Origin: Vermamoeba vermiformis
Lineage: Eukaryota
Reading direction: 5' to 3'
Length of the DNA stretch: 43,186 nucleotides
Assembly (NCBI GenBank): GCA_045837725.1
Contig: JBEWZL010000220.1
Span: 248,001 to 291,186, forward strand
In this document: positions 24,268 through 43,186 of the stretch, piece by piece
How positions within the stretch are numbered: the first letter of the stretch is position 1
Layout of the letters: every line of letters begins with the position of its first letter
The notes under the pieces: model-generated
Seen by the model: the letters and a program-made list of their open reading frames with translations, nothing else
Database searches by the model: none
What the model was told of the DNA's origin: nothing
Program-made: the position numbers and the translations under genes

Positions 24268-24526
24268 GTGTTTTCCTGTGCAGTATCTGGTGGAGAGTAA
24301 TTTTTTTTTTCAGTCCATTTTTGACCCGAGATCAAGCCCCCACGCCGGGCTTGACCCAATAATTGACACAATTAATCAGTTGAGGTAGTACATATGCATT
24401 ATGAACGTTTTACAGTATGAAAATGATCGGCTTCAAATTAGAGTGAAATTTGTGTTTTCCGGGATTTATTTACAAGTGAGTGTTCGCAGGTATTTAAATA
24501 ATATTAATATTATTATTTAAATAATA

Positions 24527-26959
24527 TTAATACAGTAAGTCTTTTTTCAAAGTAATGAATTTGATCGCTTTGTTAACAGCGTTCTTTGCAGACTGCTCGT
24601 AGAACATATTGAACGCTGCATCAGTGCACTCTCCAATCACTTGCGTCAATTGTTTTCTGACGGGCTCGTTTTTGCCGCTTTTTTCGTTGATATAAACAAC
24701 AGGCTTATCCATCAAGTTCGCTATAATAGTCGCATGCAATCGATCTGTTACGATGATCTTAGCGCGACTGAACAAATTTACGGCAATTTGCAGTCTGTAT
24801 TCGGGCGCAATATCCATATTTTCTTCCTTCTTTTCTTTCAAAATTAATCTATTCGGAAATACTCTCGAATAATTATACCAAACGAATTCTTCGCTGTCCT
24901 GGTACACCGGGTATCCCTTAAAAGGAAAATCCCAAGATTCAGCGTATAGACCTTGTTCTTCAATCGTGCCAAGTAGTGACTTAATATCGCTGTTCGATTG
25001 TGTTCCTTCGTCGTCTCGGCGGAACAACAGCAAGATGTCAATGTACGGCTGCGAGTTCGGGAAGGTAGGACCAATCATCCAAGTCGTGTCAGGCACGTAC
25101 ATCACATTGGCTGTCGTGAAATGTTTCTTCGCGAAATCGATCGATCCTTGGTCTTGCAACAAAATTGTCAATTTTTCGTGTAAATTGAATGCTTCAATTT
25201 GGTCCGCGAGAAGTGTTGGATCTGATGTGCCGTAGTTAATGATATCAGGCATAATCACTACTGGGTTGTATTTAAACATATCGACGACTCTAGTCTTCAG
25301 TCGAGCTCTGTCAGCTGAATCGTCGTTCATTGTTCCGCCGCCAGTCAAGAAAATTGTTCCGTTTCTCATATGCTGATCTCGATACTAGGCACGATCTTGA
25401 TTAGTATAATATTACGGAGTATATATACTTTGGTGTTCAGCTTACTCTCTTCAAGTTCGTGGTGCTATTGAGTTCCCAAGCAGCTTCAAATCGAGCGGGA
25501 AATTGTCCGTACACGTGCCACAACTTCTCTTGTCCGAGCCACACTACGGCGTCGGTAATGTTGTAATTGTACGCGTAGTCCATGGCTGTAAAGTTGGCGT
25601 ATCGGACGATCAACGACGTGACTTGCTTGATGATGTACTGCCGTGTCTTGTGCATGCATTGGTACCGCTGTTCTTGTCGTGCAATCTCCCCGGGAGATAT
25701 GTCGTATTGAATGTCAGTGTAATTGTATCGCGACTCTTCAAACAGATCTGCAAATGGAGATGTTGTCGAATTTGACTTATTCTCTTCGACATTAAACACC
25801 ACGGAATTTATCGTGGATGAGCTGTAACCGACCAATAATAAGAAGGCAAATCCTATGACTGCAACGGTCTTGACATTCGATATAGTGTCGTTTGCACGAG
25901 CCGATTGAATGTTGTTGTGATGACTTTCGTTGACCACGGGAGTTGTCAGGTACGCGCCAGTGATGAACATTGCAGCTGCTATTATCGACTGAGGCGTGAC
26001 TGTAGTGGCGTTCATAGCGACAGATATGACTAAGGCGACGAGTACTAGCAATGCAGAAGTTGTTTCGCGGAAAGAGTGCTTCGGGATCTGATCCGCCAAG
26101 CGGTTTTTGCCGAATAAGAGAGCTCCGACAACCAGGGCTTTTATGGACAAAGATGGCAAAGAATCCGCTGGCAGTTTGACCAAATATAAGCGTTCGCTAT
26201 TATTAACCCATACCAATAAGGATAAGACAAAAGCCACAATTGATCCAAAAATCTCGGATTGGAGATGCGATCTTTCGGCATTGGGATTTCGTCGTTGGGT
26301 ATTGATGGCATTCAAATCGGATGATGCCACGCTCCATATAACAGCAGCAAAGAACGGCAAGCCTCCAAAAGTGAAGTGAGAAGTGTACAGGATGTAGCAT
26401 CCAACCGAAACAATTAAAAATGCGATGCCGTTACGAAGGGTGAACTTGATTTGCGTGGATTTGGCCATAATATTGATGAAGAACATCGACAAAAGCTAAA
26501 AAGATACGAAGGTCAGATTTGGTGTAACGGTATGAGGTACATCCGGATCACAAAACTAAAGTAAAGCTTCGAAATTTATCCGAATGGGACTCATTAATAT
26601 AAGCATCATTAATAAGTCATATTTAACGTTACAAACTCGTGCAAATGTAATTTAAAGTTGGATGAACGTACCTGTACCAGAACGAAGGAAATTAAATTCG
26701 GATCCTTCAGCGCAAAATTTAGAAAAATTATATCTAGAGCTGTATAAGCAACGTGGTGCATGGAGGGCTGAACAGGATGCTCTGCTGAGGTTGTTGGCGT
26801 CATCATCCAAAGTTGCGCCAATCCAAAAACAGCCAAAGTTGCCGAAACCACGATTGATAAGAGCAATGGGGTGGCCATAGTAGATAAGAAATTATAGGAC
26901 AAAAGCAGCCGTCCGACGCCCACGGCAAAAAGAGAACCGAAAGCCAATACTCGATCCAT
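24527..26959 (-). CDS. Polysaccharide pyruvyltransferase-family protein with multi-pass N-terminal membrane domain, copy B (3 exons)
   Basis: Colinear with copy A (MDR..A..SL...GVGR, SE..G..V.F..S.L.WVNN.ERL, RQEQR.QC..KTR, LWH.YGQFP, WDFP..GYP.YQDS, IIVTDRLHA), with the same intron positions. Confidence 0.8.
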
Positions 26960-27534
26960 CCGTTCCGATTACGATAGATACAAATATGAGCTCGGTCAGG
27001 GTTTGGTATTAGTTAATAATATGCTGCTAATACCTGATAAATATAAAAGAAAAATGTTCGGCAATCAGTTTTGGTAATTTGCGTTTTATTAAATTTATTC
27101 GTGGGAAGGAAAAATCACAACGTCAACCGCCATAAGCACTTGAAACCAATGCACAACCTCAATGAGTTAAAACTAACATAAAGCAGGTCACCAAGGCAAT
27201 ACAGCTCTTGAGCAAAAGGCGGCTGAATTTTGACGGAAAGTAGCGCTGGAGTAGCAGATCACTAATCGTTCGCAAGAATAATTCTCGTTGCCATAGAATT
27301 AATTAAGATAGTCGACATATGAAATGCTACTTTCTATTTTTAGTACTACCGGACCAAATTAACGTCTCGTTTTCGGCATGGTGCTAACCATGCGGTATGT
27401 GGTCGATCATTATCGATATAATAATTGCATAATAATATAATAATAACAATTCTGATAAATTTCTCTTAATTAGTTAAAAAAGAAGCCATCGCCGGCACTT
27501 TGTCTAGATCGTTCGTGCATTCCTTATTAACACA

Positions 27535-29254
27535 ATGGGAGATAATTTTGACAATTTCTTAGAACAATTAGAGCCATTTGACGACGTTCAGGTACATAAT
27601 TAATCACCTTGCTTTATCTGTAATTTGATGGCAGATCTGTCAAGTTTGTCGGCTTTGTAAAAGCTCAGTTTCCAATGGTGAAATTAATATTAATTACTAT
27701 AAAATGATGTGCATATCTTATTTTGTTTTCTAATTTAAGAAATTAATTTTAACAGGATGAAGACGGCGAGAATAACTTTACCGGTCAGTTGGGGTGGATA
27801 ATATGCAAATTTTATTATAGAGATCTTATTTATTAACAATATTTGATTAAATCAGGAAGCAATTTTGTTCAAGAAGACGAGATCAAATCCGTTAATCGCT
27901 TCAAAACGCTTGATAACTCACCTCCACCGTTATCCTCGCTTTGTATTGTTAAAATAACCTCATGGATGAACGAGGCTGCCTGTCCTTCTTCCTACGGTCT
28001 TGCCCTCAAAGTCTTCAACAACATCCCACTTGCTCGTGTTCAAAAATTCTATCAACAACGAGTTAAACTGTTGCCAGATGATCTTCAAGCTAAATTAATA
28101 TCGCAGCTCTCATTTACAACGCTCAAATGCATTTACCAAGATTCAATTTGGGACGTGGATCCGATCACCCTTGCCGGAAGGTAAGCTCCACGAATATTTT
28201 GCTTAATAGTGATAAATATTAACATGGTATTCGAATAGTATTAAGCAAGAAGAAGACATGCTTCGTTATTTGTATTGGAAGAATCCTACAGATCCGCTGC
28301 TGAGGGAGTTCGAGAAGACACTCATACTCGACGTGTTCGGCGATAAAAGAATATGGCAACTTTTAAATAGCAAGCACCTCCCGCCTACTAACAATGTACG
28401 AAATATCACTTAGTTATAAGCATTCTAACGGATGTGACTGTAGTTCAAAGACGCACTCGTGCAATCCTACTTGAAAGAATGTTTTAACTACAAGTTCTGC
28501 GGAAAAGATCAATTCATGAAAACTTTTCATGAAATGACGAACGGGTGTCTGAACAAGTTGAATTGGAATAATGTGCTTGTTGTCGGTGGATCCGTTCTTA
28601 AATCACTCCGACACGAGATCAAAAAAATCGGAGAGCCACATTACCGATACGGACAATATAATACGTCTGATATTGATATCTATATTTATGGATTATCAAA
28701 AGAGCAATCACAAGCAAAAGTTGAAGAAATTTACAAATCCGTTTCATTGTGCTGGAAAAAGCCCGTTGGAATTTTCAAAACAGCAAATACGATCACCCTA
28801 GTTTCAGATCACTCTTTTAGAAACATTCAAATTATCCTTAGGTACGTCGTTGAGCTCCTTATGTGAAATCCAGATCTGATTTTTTTGCAGCACTTACGCA
28901 TCCCCTTTGGAAATTTTGTTGGCCTCTGATATGAATTCATGTTCGAGTAAGTATATGAATGATTTTACAATGTAATTGCTTGTAATAACAATAATTTGCA
29001 GTTGGATTTAATGGCAGTACAGTGCTCACAATTCCACGGTAACGCTTATGCGGACTCACTTTTCGACGAATTTTCTGACAAATTATTGCAGGTTTTTGTT
29101 CGGAGCGATGTATGGCTCTAATATGCTCGACAGCAGTACTAAATTTGGAACAAAATTGCGGTGGGAGCGACTTGCTAAGTACTTCCACAGAGGCTACAAC
29201 ATCGTGTCTCCGTTACACATTCGCGTTCATGGCAACGGCTCATTCAGTGCGTGA
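27535..29254 (+). CDS. Pol-beta-superfamily nucleotidyltransferase-like protein; multi-exon; 3' end uncertain (may extend to ~29867)
   Basis: NWNNVLVVGGSVL, SDIDIYIYGL, KTANTITL, RNIQIIL..YASPLEILL..D...C.IGFNG, ERLAKY..RG; N-terminal PPLSSLCIVKI...LPDDLQAKLI. Confidence 0.75.
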
Positions 29255-29966
29255 TACAAATACTAGCTCTAAATTAAGCTTAAAATAGTTGAAATATTCG
29301 CAAAGAATGCCGGATCGCGTTGTTTCTAATAATTTTTTTTTGCAGATTCGGAGGAGCGGATCGACAAAAATATTTCGCAGTCGACTGTAACAATAAAATT
29401 ACGTTTTTCAACATAGAACGACCACACTTATATCTTAAAGTTATATTTCTGTACAAAGTGGTCCCTGAATTGACGGCAATTGATGCGAAGTGCCGTAACT
29501 TTTGGTTGGTAAGCCAGATGCTGGATTTGTTTTTTCTGATCTTCGCATCACAACAAAATTAACGACTAATTCCATCGCGATAAATCATAATATTAATAAT
29601 AGAGTGCCTCGTAAGCAATTACAAGCACTTTTGAATTATTTTGAATTATTTTTTAAAATTAACGCCTCCGATCTGTTCGGCCATTGTGCTGCAACTATTC
29701 GGGTCGTACTTTCGATTTGTAACACTCTTATTAATACAATCTTATTGATAGGTGTGCGACTTCATATTGAGAAGATTTTGTACAGGCGATTTAGGGGACC
29801 CGGACTCTATTGTTTGAGTTTTTTCTGCCATCTTTGTAAACAAATTCCAGTAAATTTCGCACAATAGTGGTGAGTTATTATCACTTTATACATGGCTAAT
29901 GATTACTCAGTTTATTTTTGATGTGTTAGATCCGAACCACACGCGACCTCGAAAAGTGCCTCGGCA

Positions 29967-32904
29967 ATGGCCAAAGTAGTAAACCTTGGTGCCACATGCT
30001 ACATTAGCAGTTCTTTACAGCTATTATTTAGTATTGAAGCTTTCCGTGAGCTTGTTATATCATCAAAACCTACACACAAACTTGCGATTGAATTTCGACA
30101 GATTATCACACTTATGAAGAGTAATAAAACAATTCATATCGAACCATTAACAAGGCTATTGAAAATATCAAAAGCAAGCTACCAAAAAGAACACCGTGAT
30201 TTACAAGAGTTTCTGCTCAATTTATTGGACAAGTTAACTGAAGACTCTGAGTTCAAGCGAATTATAAAGCAAGTTTTTGGTGGTGCCTTACAACGTAATG
30301 GTTCAGAATTAATGGAGCCTTTTATAGGTACAAATGACTGCTGCAACTCGACTTAATTTCAATTGACTTTATAATTTAGATATTTCAATTCCAGTTGCCC
30401 CCGGCAATGTTGTGGACAGTTTAGTTCAACTTTTCAGCAGTGTACATAACATTTGCATAAGACTTGGATTTTAACTTATTCAATGATAAGGACTGGGGTT
30501 CACACAAATTTTTGACATTCCCCACTGCATTAGTCCTCCACCTTAAGCGTTTTGATAATCTGGGCAACAAGAATGAAGCGAAGTTTCACTTCAAGTCAAC
30601 TCTAGTTATTCCAGCAAAGCTCAGTTGTAGTGGTCATGCAGAGACCTACCAACTCAAATCAATAATAGTGCACCAAGGAACTGCTAAACAGGGTCACTAC
30701 GTAACCTACAGCCTTGCGAACAACCAATGGCTTGAACTCAATGATGCAGTCGTCTCAAAGGTAGTCAAAGTATGCCATTTTGCAGGTTCTAACCTCAATG
30801 TAGGCTCCCAAAGACTTCATGCAGAGGTTATTTGAGGGAATTGCAAGTGCTTATATCTTAGTGTACTGCACACAGCGTATTTCATCCCCAACCAAGTCCA
30901 GACCCACACGAATTATTGGAAATGAATCACAGCAATTTAATGATTTTATGGAATGGGACTCAACATCATGTCAAAGTGATCCAATAGAGATATCAGATAG
31001 TGAATATGAAGCAAACGAAAGTGATGATATGAGTGAATCAATTGAAGAAGATAATGAAGAGACATCAGAAGTCGCAAGTCCTGCAGCAGTGAAAGAAGGT
31101 ATTGATTTCTCATTCATTAATCATTTTGATAACCATTACTGGCAGCTAAACTTCAAGCAAAACTGTCTGGGTGGAAAAACGATGGGAGTAAATTCAAGCC
31201 CAAAACTTCTCAACCATTGACAAACCCAGGACCAAAGCACCAGCTCATCTTAACAAAAATTAATGCAATACGTCATCAACTGGGAAAGCCAAAACTGTCT
31301 TCAACACTACGTGTCACAGAGCTTGACTGTTACTTACTTATGATGAATGACATAATTGAACATATTGAAAAAACAACAGATGCAAATCTGCACATCAAAG
31401 CAGTCGATTTGCGCGCTTATCTTGGTGTTAGAATTGCACAACAATTATTGCCAGGTCATTCTGTTGATGACTCTTGGGCCTCCTTTTTGCATTCACGCGC
31501 CATGTGGGGCAACAGGTGGATTGCTAAAACAATGCTAAAAGATGAATTCAAGTTTATACACCGGAACAAAAAGTAAGTTCGTTGTTCACTCACTGTAATG
31601 GTTCTTACCTTTGGTCTTAGGTATGATGTGTACTTTGTTTGGGCAGCTCTGAATCAAACCTACTCAGAAATATGGGTGCCATTCAGCCACCTTGCTTTAG
31701 ATGATAAAGCAAATGCTTGGAAAGGAAGGTCAATTTACAAGATTTACAGATTACGCAAGCCATTCCCTTGGGCAATGTTAGAATATGTCATTATTGATGA
31801 AAGTGGATGGATGTCTGGCTTCATTCCTCGATATGGACTGTTTGCTACCATAACAGACAAGTTCAAGAAATGGCGAGAGTTATATCACGCCTTCAAAACA
31901 GGTCAACTTTCGCAAAGACCTCTACCATTTAAAACAATGTTTCCACGAGCATCAAAGACAAATTTCGATTTGGAAAAAGCCGTCAGTTTTTTATTGTCAA
32001 GACTCCCTGACAAACAAAGGCACGTTTATGACTTTATTAGAGAACCCACAAATTATGAAGAATGGAACAATCTGACAACTCGAAACTTATCACACTATCA
32101 TGTATTTTGTGACAGAGAGTTTTCCTCACTATGGCAGCACCTGCAAAAGCACAATATTGGATACACTGTTGGCATTATTGGAACATCACACCCTAACCTG
32201 TTTCAAAACAACCTTGCTCATTGTTTACAGCCAGGACAATGGCGCAGCTTAACAAACGACTCAGATATCATCATGTCATTCTATGACCCTCAAGGCAAGA
32301 CCTGTCACTGGGCTAGTAATCGAGGAACAGCAGCCTCAATTTCTGAAAAAGTAATTGATGGAAACAAAAAGAAAAAGCTTGCATACTCTGCTCCCCACTT
32401 GGTGCAACAATATCGGACATACTTCAGTTCTGTGGATAAGCATAACTCCAAAGCCAAGAAGTTTAAGTGGCCCTACCGGATTCGAAAAGTAACAGAGCGC
32501 TTAGTATTTGCAGATTGGGAGCGCTCTGCTCAAGTTCAGGCAGAAACACTCTTCAAAAGACTCACCAACAGTGATATTCCTGCCAAGAAATTTCTTGCCA
32601 ATTTAGCGCGCTCCCTGGTAGAGGAATTCCAATCAAAAAGGAAACGAAACTACACAATAGAAGCGTTAGATCTTGTGCGCGCCAGTGGAAAGCATAATCC
32701 ATACACCCACACCTGTGCGTACGAATTTGGCAACTCCAAGCGTTGTTTCTTTTGTCAAACTCAAAAGATATCTTCTTCTACACTGTAAGTATGTGTAGGT
32801 GTACTTTTGTCAAACTAATTAATTGCCTTAGCTACAAGTGCATTCAGTGCAAAGTTGCCTTACACAAGAAGTGCTGGAAGAAATTCAAAGGTGTAAATCT
32901 TTAA
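29967..32904 (+). CDS. USP (peptidase C19) deubiquitinase fused to piggyBac-family DDD transposase with C-terminal Cys-rich domain; 7 exons, ~880 aa
   Basis: Introns 30328-30379, 30442-30490, 30761-30803, 31099-31145, 31573-31620, 32785-32831 give one open frame; USP motifs NLGATCYISSSLQ, LVLHLKRF, HQG...GHY, WLELNDA; piggyBac motifs LALDD...WKGR...Y...KP, VFCDREFSS, YRTYFSSVD; CFFC...CIQCKVALHKKC. Confidence 0.85.
31146..32904 (+). mobile_element. piggyBac-derived transposase region; element ends not identified
   Basis: Three catalytic-Asp motifs and Cys-rich tail; no convincing TTAA-flanked terminal inverted repeats found by eye. Confidence 0.7.
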
Positions 32905-32942
32905 GTTTTGTACAAGGAGTTATCAGTTAACTATTGTGTGAA

Positions 32943-33210
32943 TAGCATGTAACACGTTGTGGTGTAGCATGAGCACGAAAGTGCCTGAGGCGGCTTTGAC
33001 GCAAAAAACCTCGTGTGTAGGCACTGAGAGTTTGGGGATAGTCAGCTTGCTTCAGATTTATTCACATAATCACCTGCTAGGCTAACTGTTAGTAGCATGT
33101 AACACGTTGTGGTGTAGCATGAGCACGAAAGTGCCTGAGGCAGCTTTGACGCAAAAAACCTCGTGTGTAGGCACTGAGAGTTTGGGGATAGTCAGTTTGC
33201 TTCAGATTTA
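32943..33210. repeat. Direct repeat, 2 x 118 bp, period 150 bp
   Basis: 32943-33060 and 33093-33210 differ at two positions (gcggct/gcagct; cagctt/cagttt). Confidence 0.95.
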
Positions 33211-33595
33211 CTCAACAGACGATAGCCTGGGCTACTATTGAGCTTATTTATGAGAAATGGGAGCAGCCATGTCCAAATTCTGGTACGTCTACCGTGTAGA
33301 CTTCCAGTTGGTTAAGGAATATAATTAAAAGATCTGTCAATTTTTTCATCAGATTATTAGTAACTCAAATATGCATCTATTTATTAATGACATAATATTG
33401 GTGATCGATCCTCGATCGTATTAATTTTCCGAATTTTCTTGAATCAAAATTAAATTTCAAAAAATTGGTTTAACGACAATTATTTTAAAGGCGCCATCCT
33501 ATCAGCATACACTATCGCTATAATCAACGATTATATATGCACGCCTCTTCTACATAAGTACTATAAAAAGCCTCGTACTCAGTCGTTAACACCAC

Positions 33596-33817
33596 ATGAA
33601 AGTCGATTATTGTCTTGGACAAGTAAGATCTGTTCGCAAACTCCATAATATGATTTCAAATCAATACTTTAACTATATATCAATAGCATATATTGTTCTT
33701 GGCACGTTCGGCATCGCTGCTGGCAAGATCTGGGGCATCGTGCACGGATTGGGCATAATTGCGCTTATCAGATTCGCATTCAAAACCGCTCGGAAAATCC
33801 GCGAGGGCATTCATTGA
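33596..33817 (+). CDS. Possible small hydrophobic protein (73 aa)
   Basis: TATAAAA about 35 nt upstream of ATG and two hydrophobic stretches; no recognisable homology. Confidence 0.2.
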   Translation: MKVDYCLGQVRSVRKLHNMISNQYFNYISIAYIVLGTFGIAAGKIWGIVHGLGIIALIRFAFKTARKIREGIH

Positions 33818-34242
33818 TAGACACTAGGAGCACTATATACTATACCCAAATATATATTGACGACCACGCTTGTTCTCGAATCCACCTTTTGTTCGACAAT
33901 CCGTATTCATAGCTAATAAGATATTAATGACTTTTGTAATATATGTATAATATTATTTCGTATATAATCAACCTCTGTACGCGTAATTAAGATTCTTAAC
34001 TTTCGCTGGATTCGGCATCCGGTTCGCAGAACGAAAGTAAAATAATACTGCTTTACTATAATACGATTCGTCTGAATATTACAAGGATATTTGTGTCAAC
34101 AGCATCTTGGGTATTAAATCCCCAAGCAAAGAGTCGAGAGATCGAATTGGAATGGTGTTCCAAATCCGCATTGCTACATCCGGTAATAATTTGGCTTGAT
34201 CGACATTGCCTGACTGGTGAATGAGAAATATGGGATTAATTA

Positions 34243-37200
34243 TTACGAAATTTCCATAGTATCATTTAAGAAAGGGTGTTTAAGGCATTCGTCAGCGCTT
34301 ATGCGTCGATCTGGATCCCATCGTAACATCCGTTGAAGAAGATCCACTACATGATACATATTAGCGACCATTATATAAATATATATATATATCTGCTACT
34401 AACATCCTTCCTCTGTGGCTAATCCACTCAACTCTCCTTGTTTAACTTTCGTAATTAACAATTCGCGTGTCGCCTTTGATCGGATCCGAATGCCGTACAT
34501 CTACCACAATGTTATTAGCCTATAATATTACTATATATCCATACCTTCTCGGCACAGACAAGACCAGCAGAGAAAACGTCCATTTTGTTCGTTTGAGGGT
34601 TATTGTAAATTCTTTCTGGTGCAAAATAGACTGCTGTGCCACCGTGAAAATAACGGCAAGTGCAGCCCTCTGGAACTTCCACAGTAAACTATGATATTGA
34701 AATGTAAATATACTACAACATAATGCAAGTCTTTTACTTACACCAAAATCGATCAGTTTGATCTCATTTGTTGCAGGGTCTACCATAACATTGTTGTGCT
34801 TGATGTCACCATGAATAAAGCCTTGAAAGTGCATGTAATCCAATGCCTAATTAGATAATAATGCATGTCAATATTATGATGCACAAACTAATGCAAGATG
34901 ATCATACCTCTAAAAATCCATGCATAAACAGCTTCAACTCATGCAAATCTTTGTAATCAGGAAGGGGTGACAACAATTCAAGCCATAATTGCACCTTGCC
35001 ATTCCATCTGGTGATCTCATCACGTACTCGCTTCACAATTCCTGAGCCTTCAACAGCAAAGTTAGTTTGGAGCTACTTTCAATCACAATCATTTGATTTG
35101 TACCTGGAAGTCTTCTGATTACTCCTGCTTCATGAAATGCTGTGGATACAGAATCAAATTCTTTGATTGCAATCTCCTTGCCACTGACTTCATCAAAGCA
35201 ACGATACACCCATGTGACACCCTAGGATTATGTAATTAGACACCTTAGTCTGGCTTCACTATTTTAGCAATAATCAGTATTACCAAGTATATAAGGCCTT
35301 CCTTCTGTAGCAGTTGCTCCTTGATCTTTTCATAGTGATTGACATTGTTCTGGTTGTTAGGCAATGTTTGGGCCTGTTTATGATCTGTTTTAAATCTTTT
35401 GTGGTCTGGACCTTCATTGTCATTCTTTCTTTTCTTCAGCTCACTATCTTGATGATATTTTCTCTTTGTGCCCTGTTTGCCCTTTTCATTTGAGTCTGTC
35501 TTGTTCTGTTCCTCTGTCTTCTTTGCTTGCTTTTTCTCATGACGCTTAGCTTTTGTCTGTGCAGTCAAAATCATGGTCACATCCTCAACAACACTCATCA
35601 TCTGATCAAGTGTCTTTGGTACCAATTTCAATGTTTGAGAAGTCTGGTACACTGCCAAACGTGCCATCACAACTCCAAATTGGAGCCAAGTAATGTAGTT
35701 CTTTGTCAACTTGAAGTTGGACACACAAAGTGCTTGGTATTTAAATTTCAGATCGTCATTGTTTGTATTCTCAAGCACAAACACTTGCCAATTGTGTTGT
35801 CTGACATAGAAGCCAAGTGTAAAGTGACGAGGTTTCAGGTAGAATTTTTCTTCTAAATCTCTTATCATGGCCATCTCAATCAATAATTTAACACTAAGAG
35901 AACATTAATGACATTGTTTTTCAAAACATATTCAGTACTTACATGTCAGTTTTGTTGTACTCCTCTCCTTGGCATTCAATGACAATGTGTGGCAAAACAG
36001 ATTCTCCCATGAGTGGAAGCCATGTAGATTTGTTTGATAATAACTGTTGCAATAAATCTGTCATTGGATGTTCTATACGAGCATACACTGTGCTCTCTTT
36101 GATGTCAACACACCAATGTGATGCTGCCAAATCAGGCTTAACTGAACAAGCTGTGTCAAATTCAGGATGATGGTAAAGTTTGTGGTATTGCCTATAATTA
36201 TAACGATATTGTTATTTAAAACATTTGTACTGTTGCAAATACTTACGATTCAATGTTGCCAAAAATGTGACAAAATGCTCTCGCCATTGAAACAATCTTT
36301 GCCTTACTGGCGGTAGAGAAATTTGTCTCCTCAAATATGTATCGCAATGAATTGAAGTACTGCTTCCATCTCGCGTCATTAATGTGAGTGATGGTCCAAT
36401 CACCGTCATTCATATTGTACTTGTCTTCCAATTTAATGACTTTTGTGATGTCACTAGGAGGCAAGTGCTCTGTTTGCTCTTCGTGCATTGGGATCTTGCT
36501 GACATCAAAAACTAGCCAAGGAAACTTTGGAAGAGAATGTTGTGTGGTTGTATTATTAAAAGTCGTATCTGCTTCTATATTGTAATGTATTTTTGCCTTG
36601 GCTAAGTGAGTCGCATTGAATTTAAAGCTTGAAATGTCAATTATGTCTTTTGTCTCATCCACAACCATCTGAATAAAGCGTATTTAGTACAACCATAATA
36701 TATAGTCAAATACAGCCTAATTACCTCTGTAATATAAGTGAATTTTGACGGAGTTGGTTTGTGAGGTTTTTCAAACTGAGGTCGCAATTGCGGGACGGTC
36801 AAAACATCGGTAGATATCACTAAATAAGTAAGTTAAATATGCAACTAAGCGTGATAAGTTCAAAACGGCACTTACCGTGTTTTTTCGTTTCAGATTTGCT
36901 TTGAGCGCCATTTTCCGTCGTTTTTGCAGTCTTGGAACTAAGTTGCTTGGTAGGCCTCCTCATATTGATACCTGTAATCGGACGATTGGCTTTATTCTTC
37001 GTCTCGCCAGTTGTTGGTTTTGCTTCGGCTTTTGAGTTCGAACTTGAATCTGCATCAGATTTCGGATCCACTGTTGAAACGAAGAAAAGTTCTGCTCCGT
37101 GTTTTTCGTACGATTTAATATGCTTCAAATTATTATCTGCCAAACATCTTCGCAGGAGCTGGACCAACTCTTTCTTCCGCTTCGGTTGTTGAAGTTCAGA

Positions 37201-37302
37201 TCTTTGCTTGCGGTAATAATCTAATATTTGCCGTAATATTGGTACGGTAGTCTTCTTATTATCTACCAGCTCTTTTATGGTTGGTTGTGGTGCTTCTGAC
37301 AT
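34243..37302 (-). CDS. Multidomain protein: SAP/HeH-like N-terminus, PD-(D/E)xK-like domain, Ser/Thr protein kinase; about 11 exons
   Basis: In-frame splicing from MSEAPQ (37302) to stop 34243; TVPILRQIL...KKELVQLL; VKPDLAAS...LPHIVIECQ...D.VKLLIE; kinase EIAIK, HGDIKHNNVM, IDFG, GT..YFAPE, DVFSAG, DLLQRML.WDP.RRISA..CL.HPFL. Confidence 0.8.
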
Positions 37303-37417
37303 TTTAAAATCAATTGTTCTGACGAATCCAGTTTTTTGCATTTTGCGCGGGAATTTAAACGTTGGATCAACGAGAGATCTCTCGTTCCAGTTGATAGCAT
37401 AACGATTCAATATATCA

Positions 37418-38675
37418 TTATAGCGTCCAATTAAATGACTTTTGAGTGATAACAGCTGCTCCATATTCGCCGTATTTCTCTTGCGGATCCAATGCTGTTT
37501 TGACGCATCCGACAAAGCGAACAAAGAGCCGCCTATCCAAGTGACATATAGTCTATCATATTTAGCTGTAATATTAATCCTTGGTGCTGCGTATCCGTGT
37601 CGTTTGGTTAACTGGATCAGATCTAGCGTTAATCTCTCGCTAAAATTTGGTAATAATGAACATCCGCCAGATAACACTAAATTCGACCAATATGTATCCC
37701 TATATTGTTGTTCTATATGAGCTATAGCATGGCATATTGTCTCAACTAGTCCGCTACTTTCTAATTTTTGATCAAAAATTATTTCTGGCGCTCGAAATCT
37801 TTCGCTATCTAAATAAGGTTATTGTTAATACAGTACTCATTATAATCATATATATAACTATGCGTACTTATAGTCACTAAGCGTCCTTCGTTCGCGTTGT
37901 ATTGCTGATCGAGCTCGTTGGTACTGTACGATTTTTTAGTGTCGCTTTGAAAGTCCAATGTGACGTAACACAATTGTTCTTATATCTCGCACAATCTCCC
38001 GCTCAAAAACTGAAAGGAACGATATCTATGGCACTTCATGTTAGTCCGTGAAAAATATTGAATTGGTCAATTAAAAATTTAGCAATGGCTTATAAAGTAT
38101 AACAATAGTATACTATAGCATATACGCGAAAAATCTTTTCATGAATTTTTGTCTGTGAAAAAAATACTGACCCTTTCTCCACGAGTATTTTCTGCAGATA
38201 TTCCGTTACATCACGCCCTCCGACAGCATATGAAGACGATGCATATTGTACTAGTCTGCCATCAGTGACGATAGATATTGATGTTGAGCTGTCACCTGTA
38301 AATATAACGGTCAAAAAGTGGTTCAAAACTTGAGTGGATCCGCTACTTCACAACATTACTCGTACGTTATATACAATCATATGATAGTAATAATAATGTA
38401 ATATATCGTACCCGAGTCTATGACCATTCCTGCATTCTTTCCCGCGTGACAAAGTGCGAGCACAGCTGGCTCCGCTACGAGCAATGACGGCACGCAGAAA
38501 GTTTCCAGCATGATCTCCGTTGTCTTCAAAAACGTTTTGTTCTCGTTATGCGCGTATGGGGCAATTAATACGGGATATTCTACCGGTGCTACTTTCAACA
38601 CTTCGTAAAAAGTGTGGTGCCAGATGTGAGCTCGATGTCCGCCAAACTCTTTATTCGCTCTGTTTCAAATAATTC
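37418..38675 (-). pseudogene. Divergent actin/actin-related sequence lacking the N-terminal ~65 residues, with about four frameshifts
   Basis: IWHHTFYEVLKVAP.EYPVL, EIMLETFCVP, GMVIDSGD, GGRDVTEYL, EREIVRDI/EQLCYVTLDF, ERFRAPE, VLSGG, WIGGS, YGEYGAAVITQKSF; indels near 38628, 38023, 37982 and 37476. Confidence 0.85.
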
Positions 38676-39455
38676 CTATTCTTCATATGTGCGTAGTGGT
38701 CTGTGTCCAGTTTTCGGATCAAATTCATCGCTCGTCCATAAAGTAACATTGTCTCGCATCAGGCCCAACAACAAAGTGACGTCGCGATAGTCGTCCTCAT
38801 TTAATGAATCTATTCTATTCACCGCTGCGTGGAATAATTCGCTGGCTATTGTTACAGCTCGCAAAGGATCGTTGAGTCGTTCATAAATAAAAGTTGAATA
38901 TTCTAAAACGAATCCAAGTTTCACGCGATCCAAGTCGTCTAATTGCGTAATATATTCCATGCCTGCTTCATATGCAATTTTTGCTTGATTAATTGCGTTA
39001 ATTCGGTGTTCGTCTCGCTTCAAATCCTGAATCTCCTCCCAATACTGGCCTTTTAATCTATAGAACGAAACTATTTCAGCAATAGTTCGGGTCTTTGGCA
39101 GTACATCGTTGTCTATAATATTAATAGCCTCTAATATAATTTTTTCGTGCTCGTCTATCAATTTTTGTAAATAGATCCGACACAATTCCCACTGCCGATC
39201 CTTTGCTTTGGCAGCTAACCTAATCTCTTGACTACTTGTCTCTCTATAAGCAACTCTAAAGCGTCTAAAGTGCATCGACATCGCTATTGCAAACAGTCTA
39301 CGCTCTTCGCTTGTAAACTCTCCATCCATTTTAGCAAGTTTTTTAATTCCTTGCCACATATCATCGAGCAGATCTGCTTGTTCAGCTAGGTTAATATTAA
39401 ATACTATTTCTTCACGGATATTTATATTATTGGCTTCCATGGTCTTGTGTTGCAA
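38676..39455 (-). CDS. Divergent intronless 14-3-3 domain, probably the 5' part of a 14-3-3-actin chimera
   Basis: LAEQA...DDM, EERRLF, FY.LKG.Y, LG.VL.YS.F.YE.LNDP..A, AV..ID.LNE..Y.D.TLL..L.RDN.TLWTSD. Confidence 0.85.
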   Translation of the reverse strand: MQHKTMEANNINIREEIVFNINLAEQADLLDDMWQGIKKLAKMDGEFTSEERRLFAIAMSMHFRRFRVAYRETSSQEIRLAAKAKDRQWELCRIYLQKLIDEHEKIILEAINIIDNDVLPKTRTIAEIVSFYRLKGQYWEEIQDLKRDEHRINAINQAKIAYEAGMEYITQLDDLDRVKLGFVLEYSTFIYERLNDPLRAVTIASELFHAAVNRIDSLNEDDYRDVTLLLGLMRDNVTLWTSDEFDPKTGHRPLRTYEE

Positions 39456-39545
39456 CGGTCAGATCAAAATAAATCTTTTTTTATTTTTCCGACTCATTAC
39501 CACGACTCTAACAGGTCGAATTGGCGTTATTATTACATATTTATC

Positions 39546-40454
39546 ATGGAGTGCCATTTGGACTTGCCGTCAGAGATATGGACTTCGATTTTGGAATTTT
39601 TGGATGTCAAATCTGTCGCCGTATTCATTCCTCAAGTCAACAAATTATTTAATCACTTAAGTCTCGATGAAAGACTATGGAGGATTAAATGCGTGGCGAA
39701 ACGATTAGATTTTAAGATAAAAAAAGCGGATGAAACATTTAAACAATTTTGCTTGGCCTGTAAGTCTTGTTATTTCACATTCTAATAGAATTAAATATTA
39801 ATATTATACAATAAATCACTTAAGCAGGGTTGCATCAATGGCACCAAAAGACATCCAATTAATCTTTTTATTCCAGCCGATCCACCTCAGTTATTTCCTT
39901 TTCTTGGAATGGAAATAGGACATATAGCCACGGTCGAAGCTGTAGAGAACAATAATCACAAGAAAGGGGTTTCCAGCGTAACTTTTCTTTTCGAACCAAA
40001 TCTGCTTTTACGTCGGATTAGTTTTTATCCAGGCCTTATAAAAGATATCACAACAACGTAGGTCCATATTAAAATACTTACCTTATTGCTGCACTCGATT
40101 TTTCGTCAAATTAAAATGAAAATGAAAATTCAGTACGCGTATTGAATTCGATCTTTAATTAACGTTTATATCCTTAGAGAGAAGCTCTTCAAGGCGTTTA
40201 ACAATTTTGAGCGGTCGTGGTACGACTTGTTGATATTTCTGCGCCGAAAATTTGGAAATTACAAGATGGCACCCTTGCCCAAATATCAGCCCATACGATT
40301 CTCCACTTTTTTTACAGCTGGCGTGCATACCATCGCGATGTATAAGGATGTTTATTATAGGATTGGTATTTCATTCAAAAGCGCTGGAAGTAAGTTCATT
40401 TTTCCGAAAATTCTGGATTTAGATCCGTACCAAACAAAGAAATACTTTCTTTAA
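39546..40454 (+). pseudogene. F-box protein (3 exons) with one apparent frameshift
   Basis: LDLPSEIWTSILEFLD......IPQVNKLFNHLSLDERLWR; exon 2 needs a frame change at caaaag (~39846-39850) to stay open and splice into the 40227 ORF frame. Confidence 0.7.
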
Positions 40455-41041
40455 TAACATAAATAATTAACTATATGCTATTTTCACTATAGTATCATAA
40501 AATAGGCGCAATAATTACATTTAAAGTGCTGGATCGTGCTTTTAGTTTCGGAAATATCTTCAAACCAAGCAAATAATATTAATAAAAATTATTATTTCTT
40601 AGAAAATGAGCTGAGCACATGCACCACAAGTCTTGTGACCATTGAAAGTCCCAGCGATAACGCGACAGCACTGACCTGGGCCGAGCAGTATCACAACCGA
40701 ACTTTAGAACCAGATAACTATGCCATTCCTGACGATGTGTTGTTGGCTTATAAAGATTAGTCGAATATGGCAATATATAGCGATATTAATGGAGCTGCTG
40801 GGAGAATTAGGCGTTGAGATTAAAAATGTGACACGTGTCAAACCTTGTTTTCATAGCGAGTACGGTGATTTAAGTCTATAAATGTATTATTAATAGGCAG
40901 CTTATAATTATAAAAATTAGGGTTATTCCGTATTAATTGTGCGATCAATCCTTTTCATCTTAGCCACAATTTTTTTTGACTCAAAACGTGATTTTGAACA
41001 GCCAACGCATTTTTTATTATTTATTTATTTATATATGAGCC

Positions 41042-43186
41042 ATGGCCAACGGCTGCTTACTGTGTTGCTATGACACAACATTAGTCGTAGCAGTCTTTTG
41101 TTGGATGGTGGCTGTTGGCGCGTTTGTGGCCGGAGTATCAGCTTATGCCTTCTATCAAGTGATAATAGGGTTTTGGATATTTATGGGCATATCATTGGCT
41201 CTATCTGTCGCAGGATATGTAATGTCGAGAAGAAGGCTCAGATGGCGCGACAATTCAAAACGGTCAAAAGGATGGAGTAAGGCAATTAATTGCTTAATAA
41301 TTTGCACCCCAATTTATGCTATTTTTTTATATGAATAATGAAGCCGAATAATAACGTAATAAAAGAAAAATGTGTTGCGAATCTGCAGAATAGTAATTTT
41401 AATTTTCTAATTATTATAGGATCGATTACCGAGCCACCAGTAGTGCAGTATATTTATGTAGTATTAACTGGCACTGTATTGCTCGTTTTTTTCGGCTCCA
41501 TTATTTGGATCACGCAATCTGAATACCGGCCCTTGCTTGATGTCAAGTTTTTAAGCCGTGGACAATTAAGCCATAATTCTGCTACATTTTTAATAAGAGA
41601 TTCTGCTCGTACTTCGGTCGTAAGTCCATTTTGAATCAAATCTTTTTTTATGTTTGCGCGGCCTAAGATCTGCTTTCAAATTACGGCATTTATTGATATT
41701 AGTATAATATAGATCATGCACTATCGTACCGTTGGCTCGCAACAATGGCAAGAAACAAATGAATTCGATTTAACTGAAGCCAGAGATTTTTTAGCGGGCA
41801 TTACGCTTCAAAATTTAACGCCAGCAACAGATTATGAATTCCAAATTATATATGATAATGGCGAGTATACTAGTGATATACAGTCGTTTAGAACGAGGCC
41901 TATTCCGAGTCCTAACAGCACGTACGCGTTCAAGTTCGGATTTGGATCTTGCATCTACAAACAGACCGATCCTTTTTATAAGTAAGTCCTATATTTAAGT
42001 TTACAATATTAATATTTAGCTTATACACTTATTCGTTTATTATTTTAACGAGATTTAAAATAAAAAATTAACGGATGCAGGATCTACAAATATAAAATTA
42101 ACTTATTTTATCGCTAGTATTAAAGCTATGGCAGAAGAAAATCAAGACTTCAATTTATTTCTCGGAGATTTCATTTACATTGACCACCCGTTCCCTCTAA
42201 ACGCAAAAACATCGTTTTATCATTATCGCTACAGATCCGTACACAGCGACGAATATATCAGCCAATTATTGTCTTATCCGAGCTATTATATGCGTAAGTA
42301 ATACACATATATTATTATGAATTTATCTAATCGATTTTTTTTCAGTGGACGATCATGAAATTGAAAATGATTGGGATAAAGGCACTTCCGTAAGATTTTT
42401 ATCAAATTTATTATAATTCGATAATAAAATTGATAAATTTCATTTGCAGGGCAAATATTTCGACGCCATAGCGGCCTGGAAAGATTATTGTGGCGTTAAC
42501 AACCCGAAATTTAACGCCACGGCTCCCGAGAGTAAGACTTGCCTAATTAGGAAATATTCGCTGATTTCCATTTTTAGATGTAGCGCATTATTATAGCTTT
42601 GATATTGGCTGCGCTTCATTTTTTATCGTTGACACGCGAACTTTCAGATCTCCAAATCGAGAGGTAAATATCGCTTAATTAATTATATGTCCTATTATAT
42701 AGATCATATACTAATAGTTTATTCATATAATAGCCCAATGATAGCGAAACTAAGACTATGTTGGGTGCAGATCAGTTACAAGATCTGTTCGCGTGGCTAC
42801 TCAGTCATAATTCTTCGCAAATTAAGGTATAATAATTATAATTATATTAATATAACCTAATAGATATTAATAATCAGCAAACTGATACTAAAAATACCAT
42901 AATTTAAATTTAAATTTAAATTTTTTTTAGTTCATCGGCACGTCAGTCCCGTTCACTGAATTGACGGTCGGATCAGATGTTTGGTCCGGTCGCACAGTCG
43001 AGCGTCAAAAGATACTCGATTTCATCGTGCAGCACCACATCAACGGCATTGTGTTTTTGAGTGGTGACAGTCATTGGGCTGGGGCGTATAAATTGCGCAA
43101 AGGCAAGTCAAGCCAATATATTTTCCTTAAAAATAACACGTACTGCTAGTAATAATACTATCTTGATTGCAAACTGCCTTTTTTTT
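41042..43186 (+). CDS. phoD: PhoD-family alkaline phosphatase with N-terminal transmembrane helices and fn3-like domain; runs off right edge
   Basis: FGFGSC, LFLGDFIYID, DDHEIEND, FFIVDTRTFRS, MLGADQL, DVWSG...ERQKILDFI, VFLSGDSH. Confidence 0.9.

What the first reader, a model, noticed from the sequence alone, without database searches (positions are those of the whole stretch)
27535..40454. ~13 kb accessory island: possible cargo-carrying piggyBac-type element
Seen: between the pyruvyltransferase and PhoD genes lie, tightly packed, a nucleotidyltransferase, USP-transposase, nuclease-like-kinase, 14-3-3/actin chimera and F-box gene. The two central convergent genes look intact while the flanking ones carry lesions. 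Inference: a large mobile unit whose cargo manipulates ubiquitin and phosphorylation signalling, or a hotspot of captured genes. No terminal repeats were found, so the boundaries are unproven.
Basis: inference. Interest (0 to 1): 0.75.

Follow-up and report, generated by a model that had tools for sequence, protein, structure and literature searches.

The report
Transposon with a built-in deubiquitinase
The proposed 13-kb island is not one unit; inside it sits a 3.9-kb, many-copy piggyBac-like jumping gene whose transposase carries a conserved ubiquitin-removing enzyme, a handy case for testing why transposons keep such enzymes.

Summary
The genes exist, but the 13-kb unit does not. Contig depth in the best-holding DNA run is 16-45 times the flanks only over 29416-33177. 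The mobile unit is about 3.9 kb (29374-33318), flanked by ATAT, with only a weak terminal inverted match (10 of 17 bases) and a 150-bp subterminal tandem repeat. It encodes one 7-exon, 886-aa protein: USP deubiquitinase (Cys/His/Asp intact, fingers shortened), acidic linker, piggyBac-type DDD transposase, cysteine-rich tail. A metagenomic sister element keeps all six introns, the USP triad (50% identity, synonymous sites saturated), the repeat and the right end, so the fusion is old and under selection. The element is CpG-depleted, near-identical in a water metagenome, and one transposase intron is spliced in another run. It sits in the probable last exon of the nucleotidyltransferase-like gene. 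The kinase, 14-3-3/actin and F-box genes lie at background depth. Transposons with deubiquitinases are known, including one USP fusion to another transposase family; a USP-piggyBac fusion was not found in nine paper searches. What the USP does is inferred, not shown.

The parts
29370..29373 (.). left ATAT, probable target-site duplication
   Evidence: X3 contig fits from 29370 with 0 differences, then 110 nt run off unlike (table 8); partial-bin depth puts the edge at 29370; sequence
29374..33318 (+). USP-piggyBac-like DNA transposon, 3,945 bp
   Evidence: X1 depth 9,345-17,361 in the six bins 29416-33177 against medians of 255 (7 left bins) and 713 (15 right bins); sister element L001
29374..29390 (+). 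left terminus; weak inverted match to 33302-33318
   Evidence: 10 of 17 bases complementary; random pairs of the window reach this in 0.5% of 200,000 draws; length 17 was chosen after looking
29374..29966 (+). CpG-rich leader, probable promoter and 5' UTR
   Evidence: CpG o/e 1.37 against 0.49 in the gene; L001's first 400 nt are also CpG-rich (1.35); promoter function is inferred
29967..32904 (+). USP-transposase gene; exons 29967-30327, 30380-30441, 30491-30769, 30804-31098, 31146-31572, 31621-32784, 32832-32904; 886 aa
   Evidence: no internal stop, six GT-AG introns of 34-52 nt; same six positions and phases in L001; intron 31573-31620 spliced out in run X9
29967..30869 (+). USP / peptidase C19 domain (aa 1-256): C11 (29997-99), H210 (30695-97), D226 (30743-45); fingers region shortened
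   Evidence: Pfam UCH E 1e-15 and 9e-18; PDB USP34 E 7e-10, Ubp8 E 1e-7; triad kept in L001
30870..31183 (+). acidic Ser-rich linker (aa 257-345), contains intron 4
   Evidence: 24% Asp/Glu in both elements, 2-3 CK2-type motifs; 38% identity
31184..32671 (+). piggyBac-type transposase core: D502 (31700-02), D639 (32111-13), D747 (32435-37)
   Evidence: Pfam PF13843 E 4e-11; the three Asp are invariant in 13 of 13 aligned rows; model pLDDT 78, best PDB folds piggyBat 9c0f and piggyBac 6x67, E about 1e-10
32672..32904 (+). C-terminal cysteine-rich domain, C-x2-C-x12-C-x2-C-x4-H-x2-C, split by intron 6
   Evidence: spliced sequence; 82% identical in L001; no profile search of the spliced domain
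32943..33219 (+). subterminal 150-bp tandem repeat, 1.8 copies, 96% alike
   Evidence: L001 has a homologous duplicated unit
33302..33318 (+). right terminus
   Evidence: 33303-33325 (23 nt) identical in L001, unrelated sequence after; first single-locus X1 contig starts at 33296, depth 276
33319..33322 (.). right ATAT, probable target-site duplication
27535..29373 (+). host gene, Gad2-like / nucleotidyltransferase-like, 9 exons; its probable last exon is cut by the transposon
   Evidence: open model; Atlas 0.95, 175 of 256 features; RNA reads of a relative in X10 support two of its introns (table 5c)
33323..33395 (+). probable displaced 3' end of that gene
   Evidence: removing the element and one ATAT gives an open 437-aa frame; three other cut models also give short open tails, so this is not a test of the cut
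34243..37302 (-). neighbour, not cargo: HeH/SAP-like motif, unassigned middle domains, Ser/Thr kinase; 11 exons, 834 aa; CpG-poor from 34545 to 36819
   Evidence: Pkinase; HeH E 0.008, below cut-off; spliced joint 35220->35286 in X9; X1 depth 1.3 times its neighbours
37418..39440 (-). neighbour, not cargo: divergent 14-3-3 ORF (38679-39440) followed by a broken, 5'-truncated actin-like sequence
   Evidence: Pfam; one stop and three frame changes; background depth
   Evidence: X9 joint

Best explanation
29374-33318 is an autonomous, recently active cut-and-paste DNA transposon of a divergent piggyBac branch, present in tens of copies, that landed in an ATAT site in the last exon of a host gene. 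It makes one spliced protein: USP deubiquitinase - acidic linker - DDD transposase - cysteine-rich DNA-binding tail. Shown by sequence or reads: extent, high depth, gene structure, intact catalytic residues, conservation in a sister element, splicing of one intron, CpG loss. Inferred from piggyBac knowledge: the core and tail bind the ends (probably using the conserved right end and the 150-bp repeats, since the inverted repeats are poor), excise the element and insert it at a 4-bp site. Inferred and untested: the USP is tethered so that it acts where the transposase is. Most likely it strips ubiquitin from the transposase or transpososome and so delays its degradation (about 45%); otherwise it removes ubiquitin marks from nearby chromatin to ease silencing (about 25%), tunes repair of the breaks (about 20%), or cuts another substrate (about 10%). 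The shortened fingers suggest it cuts within chains or near the attachment point rather than gripping a whole distal ubiquitin (analogy to CYLD, recalled). The other genes of the 13-kb interval are host-locus neighbours.
For: Depth 16-45 times the flanks over exactly this stretch. Two independent edge readings at 29370 (X3 contig; partial bin). Right edge fixed by L001 and by the first single-locus contig. ATAT on both sides. If all copies shared sequence to 33325, a unique word at 33326 would be expected in under 0.6% of cases for 15 or more copies, against 51-89% for an end at 33322. Gene open in both elements with the same six introns; USP 50%, core 63%, tail 82% identical, pN 0.35/0.25/0.12 against pS 0.76-0.83. 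Five X3 pieces over the element differ by 2 bases in 3,374, while three host pieces differ by 1 in 323, 6 in 355 and 5 in 275; in X9 the transposase piece differs by 1 in 285, host pieces by about 3% (shown rows only). CpG o/e 0.49 with TpG/CpA excess, against 0.97-1.50 in all 316 outside 2-kb windows. DUB activity has been shown for Helitron VTD domains (PMC9741609).
Against: Only one copy is held with both ends; L001 lacks its first ~20 bases. No empty site was seen. L001 and the window share AAT beyond the right ATAT (about 3% by base composition), so the end or target may be longer. The terminal inverted match is weak and starts with T, not C. The lay tool warns that summed contig depth is no copy number, and X1 may be the window's own source. 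No shown RNA joint links the USP exons to the transposase exons (17 joints and 610 pieces were hidden). A Met in the linker is conserved in both elements and could start a transposase-only protein. RNA run X10, from a diverged relative, has no reads from 30043 to 35058. No activity of either domain was measured.
Confidence: 0.82

Rival explanations
1. One reading: a ~13-kb piggyBac-type element (27535-40454) carries the five genes as cargo to manipulate ubiquitin and phosphorylation signalling.
For: The genes are tightly packed and odd; the kinase gene shares the transposon's CpG loss (o/e 0.39) and is at 1.3 times the depth of its neighbours.
Against: High depth is confined to 3.9 kb, with no step at either proposed border. 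No end repeats at the borders. The right border cuts the F-box gene. L001 ends at the same base and goes on into unrelated DNA. A CpG-normal 920-bp spacer separates the two CpG-poor blocks.
Confidence: 0.04
2. The element is real, but its tips and target differ from my call: for example the element ends in ...ATATAAT, or duplicates 2-3 bases or none.
For: Window and L001 share three more bases (AAT) after the right ATAT. The inverted match is weak. Four cut models all leave a plausible host C-terminus.
Against: The X1 contig that starts at 33296 is single-locus, which is very unlikely if every copy ended at 33325. X3 departs exactly before ATAT on the left. A palindromic preference around ATAT would explain the shared AAT.
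Confidence: 0.15
3. USP and transposase are two proteins from one element: retention of intron 4 ends a USP-only protein, and an internal Met in the linker starts a transposase-only protein.
For: Read-through of intron 4 meets a stop in both elements; a linker Met is conserved; no shown RNA joint covers intron 4.
Against: Intron 4 has the same position and phase in both elements and joins the frames. The end of the USP and the linker lie in one exon. The only CpG-rich leader is upstream of the USP.
Confidence: 0.15
4. A domesticated, immobile USP-PGBD host gene, like the intron-bearing domesticated piggyBac genes.
For: Six conserved introns and purifying selection; introns are described for PGBD5, PGM and TPB2 (PMC5381638); poor terminal repeats.
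Against: High depth, different flanks in X3 and L001, insertion into a host exon, CpG loss, conserved non-coding right end.
Confidence: 0.03

Closest known systems
piggyBac (T. ni) and piggyBat transposons
   Same: DDD core, cysteine-rich tail, acidic Ser-rich stretch before the core, 4-bp AT-only duplication, asymmetric subterminal sequence; best fold matches 6x67 and 9c0f (PMC5381638, PMC11707139).
   Different: N-terminal USP domain; six introns in a mobile copy; ATAT instead of TTAA (listed as a rare exception in PMC5381638); termini 10 of 17 complementary and starting with T; Asn at the fourth-Asp position; a ~60-aa insertion between the first two Asp; 12-14% structural identity.
Unnamed sister clade P0003-P0006, P0008 and their cluster members
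   Same: Share the insertion; 24-31% identity; form a 100/100-supported group with the window and L001.
   Different: No USP by Pfam in any of the 22 hits scanned. P0004, P0006 and P0008 look full-length. Caveat: these gene calls ignore introns, so an upstream USP exon could be missed.
Trichomonas vaginalis XP_001314237.1 (Transposase_11 + peptidase C19), noted in PMC2836005
   Same: USP-family domain in the same protein as a DDE transposase.
   Different: Another transposase family (pfam01609); mentioned in one sentence, with no ends or activity in the passage seen. I did not fetch the protein.
Ginger (OTU, Ulp1), Mutator (Ulp1), Helitron/Helentron (OTU, VTD) protease fusions
   Same: DNA transposons keeping a ubiquitin or SUMO protease on the transposition protein; proposed roles in repair (PMC2836005) or against proteasomal loss (PMC9741609).
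   Different: Other protease clans and other transposon superfamilies.
Teratorn and other large cargo elements (PMC6431247)
   Same: piggyBac-like transposase.
   Different: Those are 41-182 kb with many genes and 18-bp terminal repeats; this element is 3.9 kb with one gene.
Repbase 'piggyBacA' group (recalled, from no call)
   Same: I recall it as piggyBac-related elements with ATAT duplications.
   Different: Could not be checked: the term was absent from the 15 papers and the 25 of 110 listed. If the recollection is right, the ATAT target is not new.

Membership tests
piggyBac superfamily (canonical piggyBac-like element) | DDD catalytic triad in an RNase H-like core (T. ni D268/D346/D447) | tested here: met
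   D502, D639, D747 invariant in 13 of 13 rows; PF13843 above cut-off; fold matches. The alignment behind included five canonical piggyBac-like rows.
piggyBac superfamily (canonical piggyBac-like element) | C-terminal cysteine-rich zinc-binding domain | tested here: met
   C-x2-C-x12-C-x2-C-x4-H-x2-C in both spliced models, 82% identical; by pattern only, no profile or fold
piggyBac superfamily (canonical piggyBac-like element) | TTAA target-site duplication | tested here: not met
   ATAT at the read-defined edges; one full locus and two half junctions; PMC5381638 lists ATAT as a rare exception
piggyBac superfamily (canonical piggyBac-like element) | 12-19 bp terminal inverted repeats beginning with C | tested here: not met
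   10 of 17 complementary, beginning with T
piggyBac superfamily (canonical piggyBac-like element) | precise excision restoring the target | not testable with these tools
   no genome held; no empty site among the shown rows
USP / peptidase C19 deubiquitinase | Cys box, His box and Asn/Asp in order | tested here: met
   C11, H210, N225/D226 align with solved USPs and are kept in L001
USP / peptidase C19 deubiquitinase | full fingers subdomain (usual, not universal) | tested here: not met
   55-59 residues between thumb and palm anchor points against 87 (USP28), 109 (USP12) and 113 (USP46), from hit coordinates; no CxxC in the span
USP / peptidase C19 deubiquitinase | cleaves ubiquitin conjugates | not testable with these tools
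   needs a bench assay
Autonomous mobile DNA transposon | several near-identical copies with different flanks | tested here: met
   depth 16-45 times the flanks; X3 copy with another left flank; L001 with another right flank; indirect, no assembly
   one relative held (L001): none of these genes in 4,379 nt, of which about 530 lie beyond the right end
Crinkler-like REase + kinase protein (neighbour gene) | protein kinase domain with catalytic motifs | tested here: met
   Pkinase; Lys, HGD, DFG and APE motifs in the model
Crinkler-like REase + kinase protein (neighbour gene) | restriction-endonuclease-fold domain before the kinase | tested here: inconclusive
   a PD...E-x-Q pattern by eye; no Pfam hit, Atlas at most 0.82, model of one exon pLDDT 55 with only helix-pair matches
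Crinkler-like REase + kinase protein (neighbour gene) | ubiquitin-like header domain | tested here: inconclusive
   exon-wise Pfam shows only a weak HeH match; no Crinkler profiles were available

The most novel reading that the evidence does not exclude
The window and L001 found an undescribed piggyBac branch that is mobile with almost no terminal inverted repeat, targets ATAT, keeps six introns, and uses a tethered, finger-shortened USP as an essential counter-defence: it removes ubiquitin from the transpososome or from silencing chromatin at its own ends in a host that methylates transposons. It would be the first active cut-and-paste element in which the value of a carried deubiquitinase could be measured with one point change.
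Probability: 0.3. Interest if true: 0.75.

Novelty: new variant of a known kind. Interest (0 to 1): 0.55.

Why it matters
Several DNA transposon groups have separately picked up ubiquitin or SUMO proteases. The papers I read offer only hypotheses for why (repair, or protection from the proteasome). This element is small, intact, apparently recently active, related to the best-studied transposase tools, and carries the protease on the same chain, so the question can be tested directly. Its non-TTAA target and poor end symmetry also widen what piggyBac-family enzymes can recognise. The 13-kb cargo idea, which drove the first score, is not supported.

Tried and rejected
No whole genome is held, so no self-search for copies. 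Repeat scans found no clean terminal repeats for either unit; the best pair (29432/33304, 73%) does not match the read-defined left edge and was dropped. Word searches for longer relatives found none for the transposase exon (0 of 1,885 candidates), the nuclease-like exon (0 of 58) or the 14-3-3 ORF (0 of 2,201); all three are weak negatives. Viral contigs held no relative. The two genome contigs pattern hits L002 and L003 are chance matches in bacterial DNA. The metagenome scan gave 1 relative of 135 candidate stretches. My early idea that 14-3-3, actin and kinase form one reading frame (note) was dropped: the actin C-terminal motif lies in another frame and ends near 37418, so the long open frame arises from a frame change. 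The 2-exon reading of 33596-33817 in that note was replaced by an unspliced 73-aa ORF. No RNA holder was listed on record; X9 is only guessed to be RNA, though its contigs lack introns. The fold of the nuclease-like exon was uninformative. Earlier findings: nothing. PMC7187635 is not held. A search on a guessed amoeba host gave nothing relevant; no call identifies the host. No supplements were read; supplement S2 of PMC5381638 lists the non-TTAA elements and may bear on the ATAT claim.
Full report
Setting. The window is eukaryotic DNA of about 39% G+C with compact genes and mostly 45-65-nt GT-AG introns. No genome is held and no call names the host. Matches in water metagenomes and the gene style suggest a free-living protist, which is my inference only.

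Observation. The two central genes are intact: a 7-exon, 886-aa USP-transposase on + (29967-32904) and an 11-exon, 834-aa kinase gene on - (37302-34243). Of the flanking genes only the 14-3-3/actin sequence is clearly broken, with a stop at 38676-78 and three frame changes. The first gene reads open through nine exons and resembles Gad2-family proteins in the Atlas (0.95), a lead that fits a nucleotidyltransferase fold (that link is recalled). The F-box gene has an open 254-aa model reaching about 40760, so the proposed right border lies inside a gene.

Where the mobile unit is. CpG is normal across the window (o/e 0.97-1.50 in all 316 two-kb windows outside 29300-36900) but drops to 0.49 in the USP-transposase gene and 0.39 in the kinase gene body, with TpG/CpA excess and a CpG-normal 920-bp gap between them. 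I laid 4 of 13 listed runs on 24400-43186. In X1 the summed contig depth averages 11,477 over five bins of 29416-32550, against medians of 255 to the left and 713 to the right. The kinase gene is only 1.3 times its neighbours, and nothing changes at 27535 or 40454. The tool warns that such depth is not a copy number and that X1 may be the window's source; I read it as 'tens of copies'. A water-metagenome contig (X3) matches from 29370 with no difference and then runs 110 bases into other sequence; the partial bin gives the same edge. On the right, the first single-locus contig starts at 33296. ATAT stands at 29370-73 and 33319-22, which gives an element of 3,945 bp. Only the top rows of each table were shown (610 pieces, 123 loose ends, 17 joints hidden).

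A sister element. A metagenome scan gave one relative among 135 candidate stretches, L001. It encodes an 887-aa protein with all six introns at the same positions and phases; identity is 50% in the USP, 38% in the linker, 63% in the core and 82% in the cysteine-rich tail, with synonymous sites saturated (pS 0.76-0.83 in the three domains). It keeps a duplicated ~150-bp subterminal unit and 23 identical bases at the right end, then passes into unrelated DNA. It begins about 20 bases inside the left end. So the USP is not a chance neighbour: it has been kept, with C11, H210 and D226, since the two families split.

The ends. They are atypical. The termini are complementary at 10 of 17 positions and begin with T. 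The window and L001 share AAT beyond the right ATAT, which has about a 3% chance by composition. Against a longer end, a unique 31-mer at 33326 is expected in under 0.6% of cases if 15 or more copies all ended at 33325, and in 51-89% if they end at 33322. I put ATAT at about 85%. PMC5381638 (12 of 25 passages seen) gives TTAA and 12-19-bp repeats starting with C as the family rule and ATAT as a rare exception. By those two tests the element is not a canonical member, although its enzyme is clearly piggyBac-type.

The protein. The core has the DDD triad D502/D639/D747, invariant in 13 aligned proteins, and its model (pLDDT 78) matches piggyBat and piggyBac best. A search of 1.84 billion representatives gave 37 hits. 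None of the 22 scanned has a USP domain, though such gene calls ignore introns. In a tree of 30 rows (hits under 330 aa and three L001-type duplicates left out) the two USP elements are sister to nine rows without a detected USP, and together they form a long, fully supported branch. The USP matches solved USP34, Ubp8, USP12 and USP7, but its fingers region is about 30-55 residues shorter than in USP28, USP12 and USP46 and has no CxxC.

Activity and insertion. Five X3 pieces over the element differ by 2 bases in 3,374. In X9 a transposase piece differs by 1 in 285 while host pieces differ by about 3%, and intron 5 is spliced out. This fits a young, transcribed family. X10, RNA of a more distant relative, shows reads on the nucleotidyltransferase-like, 14-3-3, F-box and PhoD regions but none on the element or on most of the kinase gene. 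The left ATAT lies 25 bases into the probable last exon of the nucleotidyltransferase-like gene; without the element the frame runs on to 437 aa, though other cut models also give open tails.

Mechanism. Shown: structure, conservation, high depth, CpG loss, one splice. Inferred from piggyBac work (PMC11707139, 12 of 21 passages): core and tail bind asymmetric ends, and an acidic N-terminal stretch with CK2-type sites restrains activity; here that stretch links to a USP. My best reading is that the tethered USP removes ubiquitin from the transposase complex and slows its degradation (about 45%); anti-silencing on chromatin (25%), tuning of repair (20%) and other substrates (10%) remain. None is tested. 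CpG loss points to host cytosine methylation of the element (inference).

The 13-kb reading. It fails on depth, ends, linkage in L001 and a border inside a gene; I give it 4%. What remains of interest is the kinase gene: intact, spliced in X9, near single-copy, yet as CpG-poor as the transposon, while long host genes in the window are not. A restriction-nuclease-plus-kinase layout as in Crinkler-like proteins (PMC5289972, 11 passages) is possible but unproven.

Novelty. Deubiquitinase or SUMO-protease fusions are known in Ginger, Mutator and Helitron elements, and PMC2836005 (3 passages) notes one Trichomonas protein with peptidase C19 on a Transposase_11 domain. Helitron VTD domains are active enzymes (PMC9741609, 12 of 29 passages). 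PMC6431247 (8 passages) describes no such piggyBac; of PMC12957317 I saw only the abstract and outline. Nine searches listed no USP-piggyBac fusion; the library lacks most subscription journals and Repbase. I recall a Repbase group with ATAT targets but could not confirm it. Verdict: a new variant of a known kind; interest 0.55.

Noticed in passing
window 34545-36819: The kinase gene body is as CpG-depleted as the transposon (o/e 0.39) although near single-copy, intact and spliced in X9; its first exon and last two exons are CpG-normal. It may be a silenced repeat-family or transposon-derived gene.
   Followed up: partly
window 37418-39440: A divergent 14-3-3 ORF abuts, in frame across one stop, a 5'-truncated actin-like sequence. 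No longer 14-3-3 relative was found (weak negative). It may be a decayed chimera or two adjacent genes.
   Followed up: partly
window 38022-38613: X1 holds a second form of the actin-like region at equal depth with 50 differences in 459 nt and a joint skipping 132 nt: a very divergent allele or paralog.
   Followed up: no
window 31801-32863 and 32898-33133: X1 joints at depth 934 inside the transposase, and loose ends in X1 and X3 that resemble the L001 form of the repeat start, suggest deleted copies or sister families in the same samples.
   Followed up: no
window 24400-28161 versus 33805-43186: Background depth in X1 is about 2-3 times higher to the right of the transposon than to the far left (medians 713 and 255); cause unknown.
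   Followed up: no
window 29506-29545 and L001 113-150: A splice-donor-like motif and nearby bases are conserved in the otherwise diverged leader; there may be a 5' UTR intron or a small upstream exon.
   Followed up: no
window 33596-33817: CpG-normal 73-aa ORF with a hydrophobic C-terminal half between the transposon and the kinase gene; no Pfam hit.
   Followed up: partly
window 27535-29373: The interrupted host gene resembles Gad2-family proteins (phage anti-defence name) and a eukaryote/giant-virus cluster in the Atlas.
   Followed up: partly
   Followed up: no
P0003-P0010: An unnamed piggyBac clade with a ~60-aa insertion and a DREF motif at the second Asp, known here only from short unnamed contigs; its ends and targets were not examined.
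   Followed up: partly
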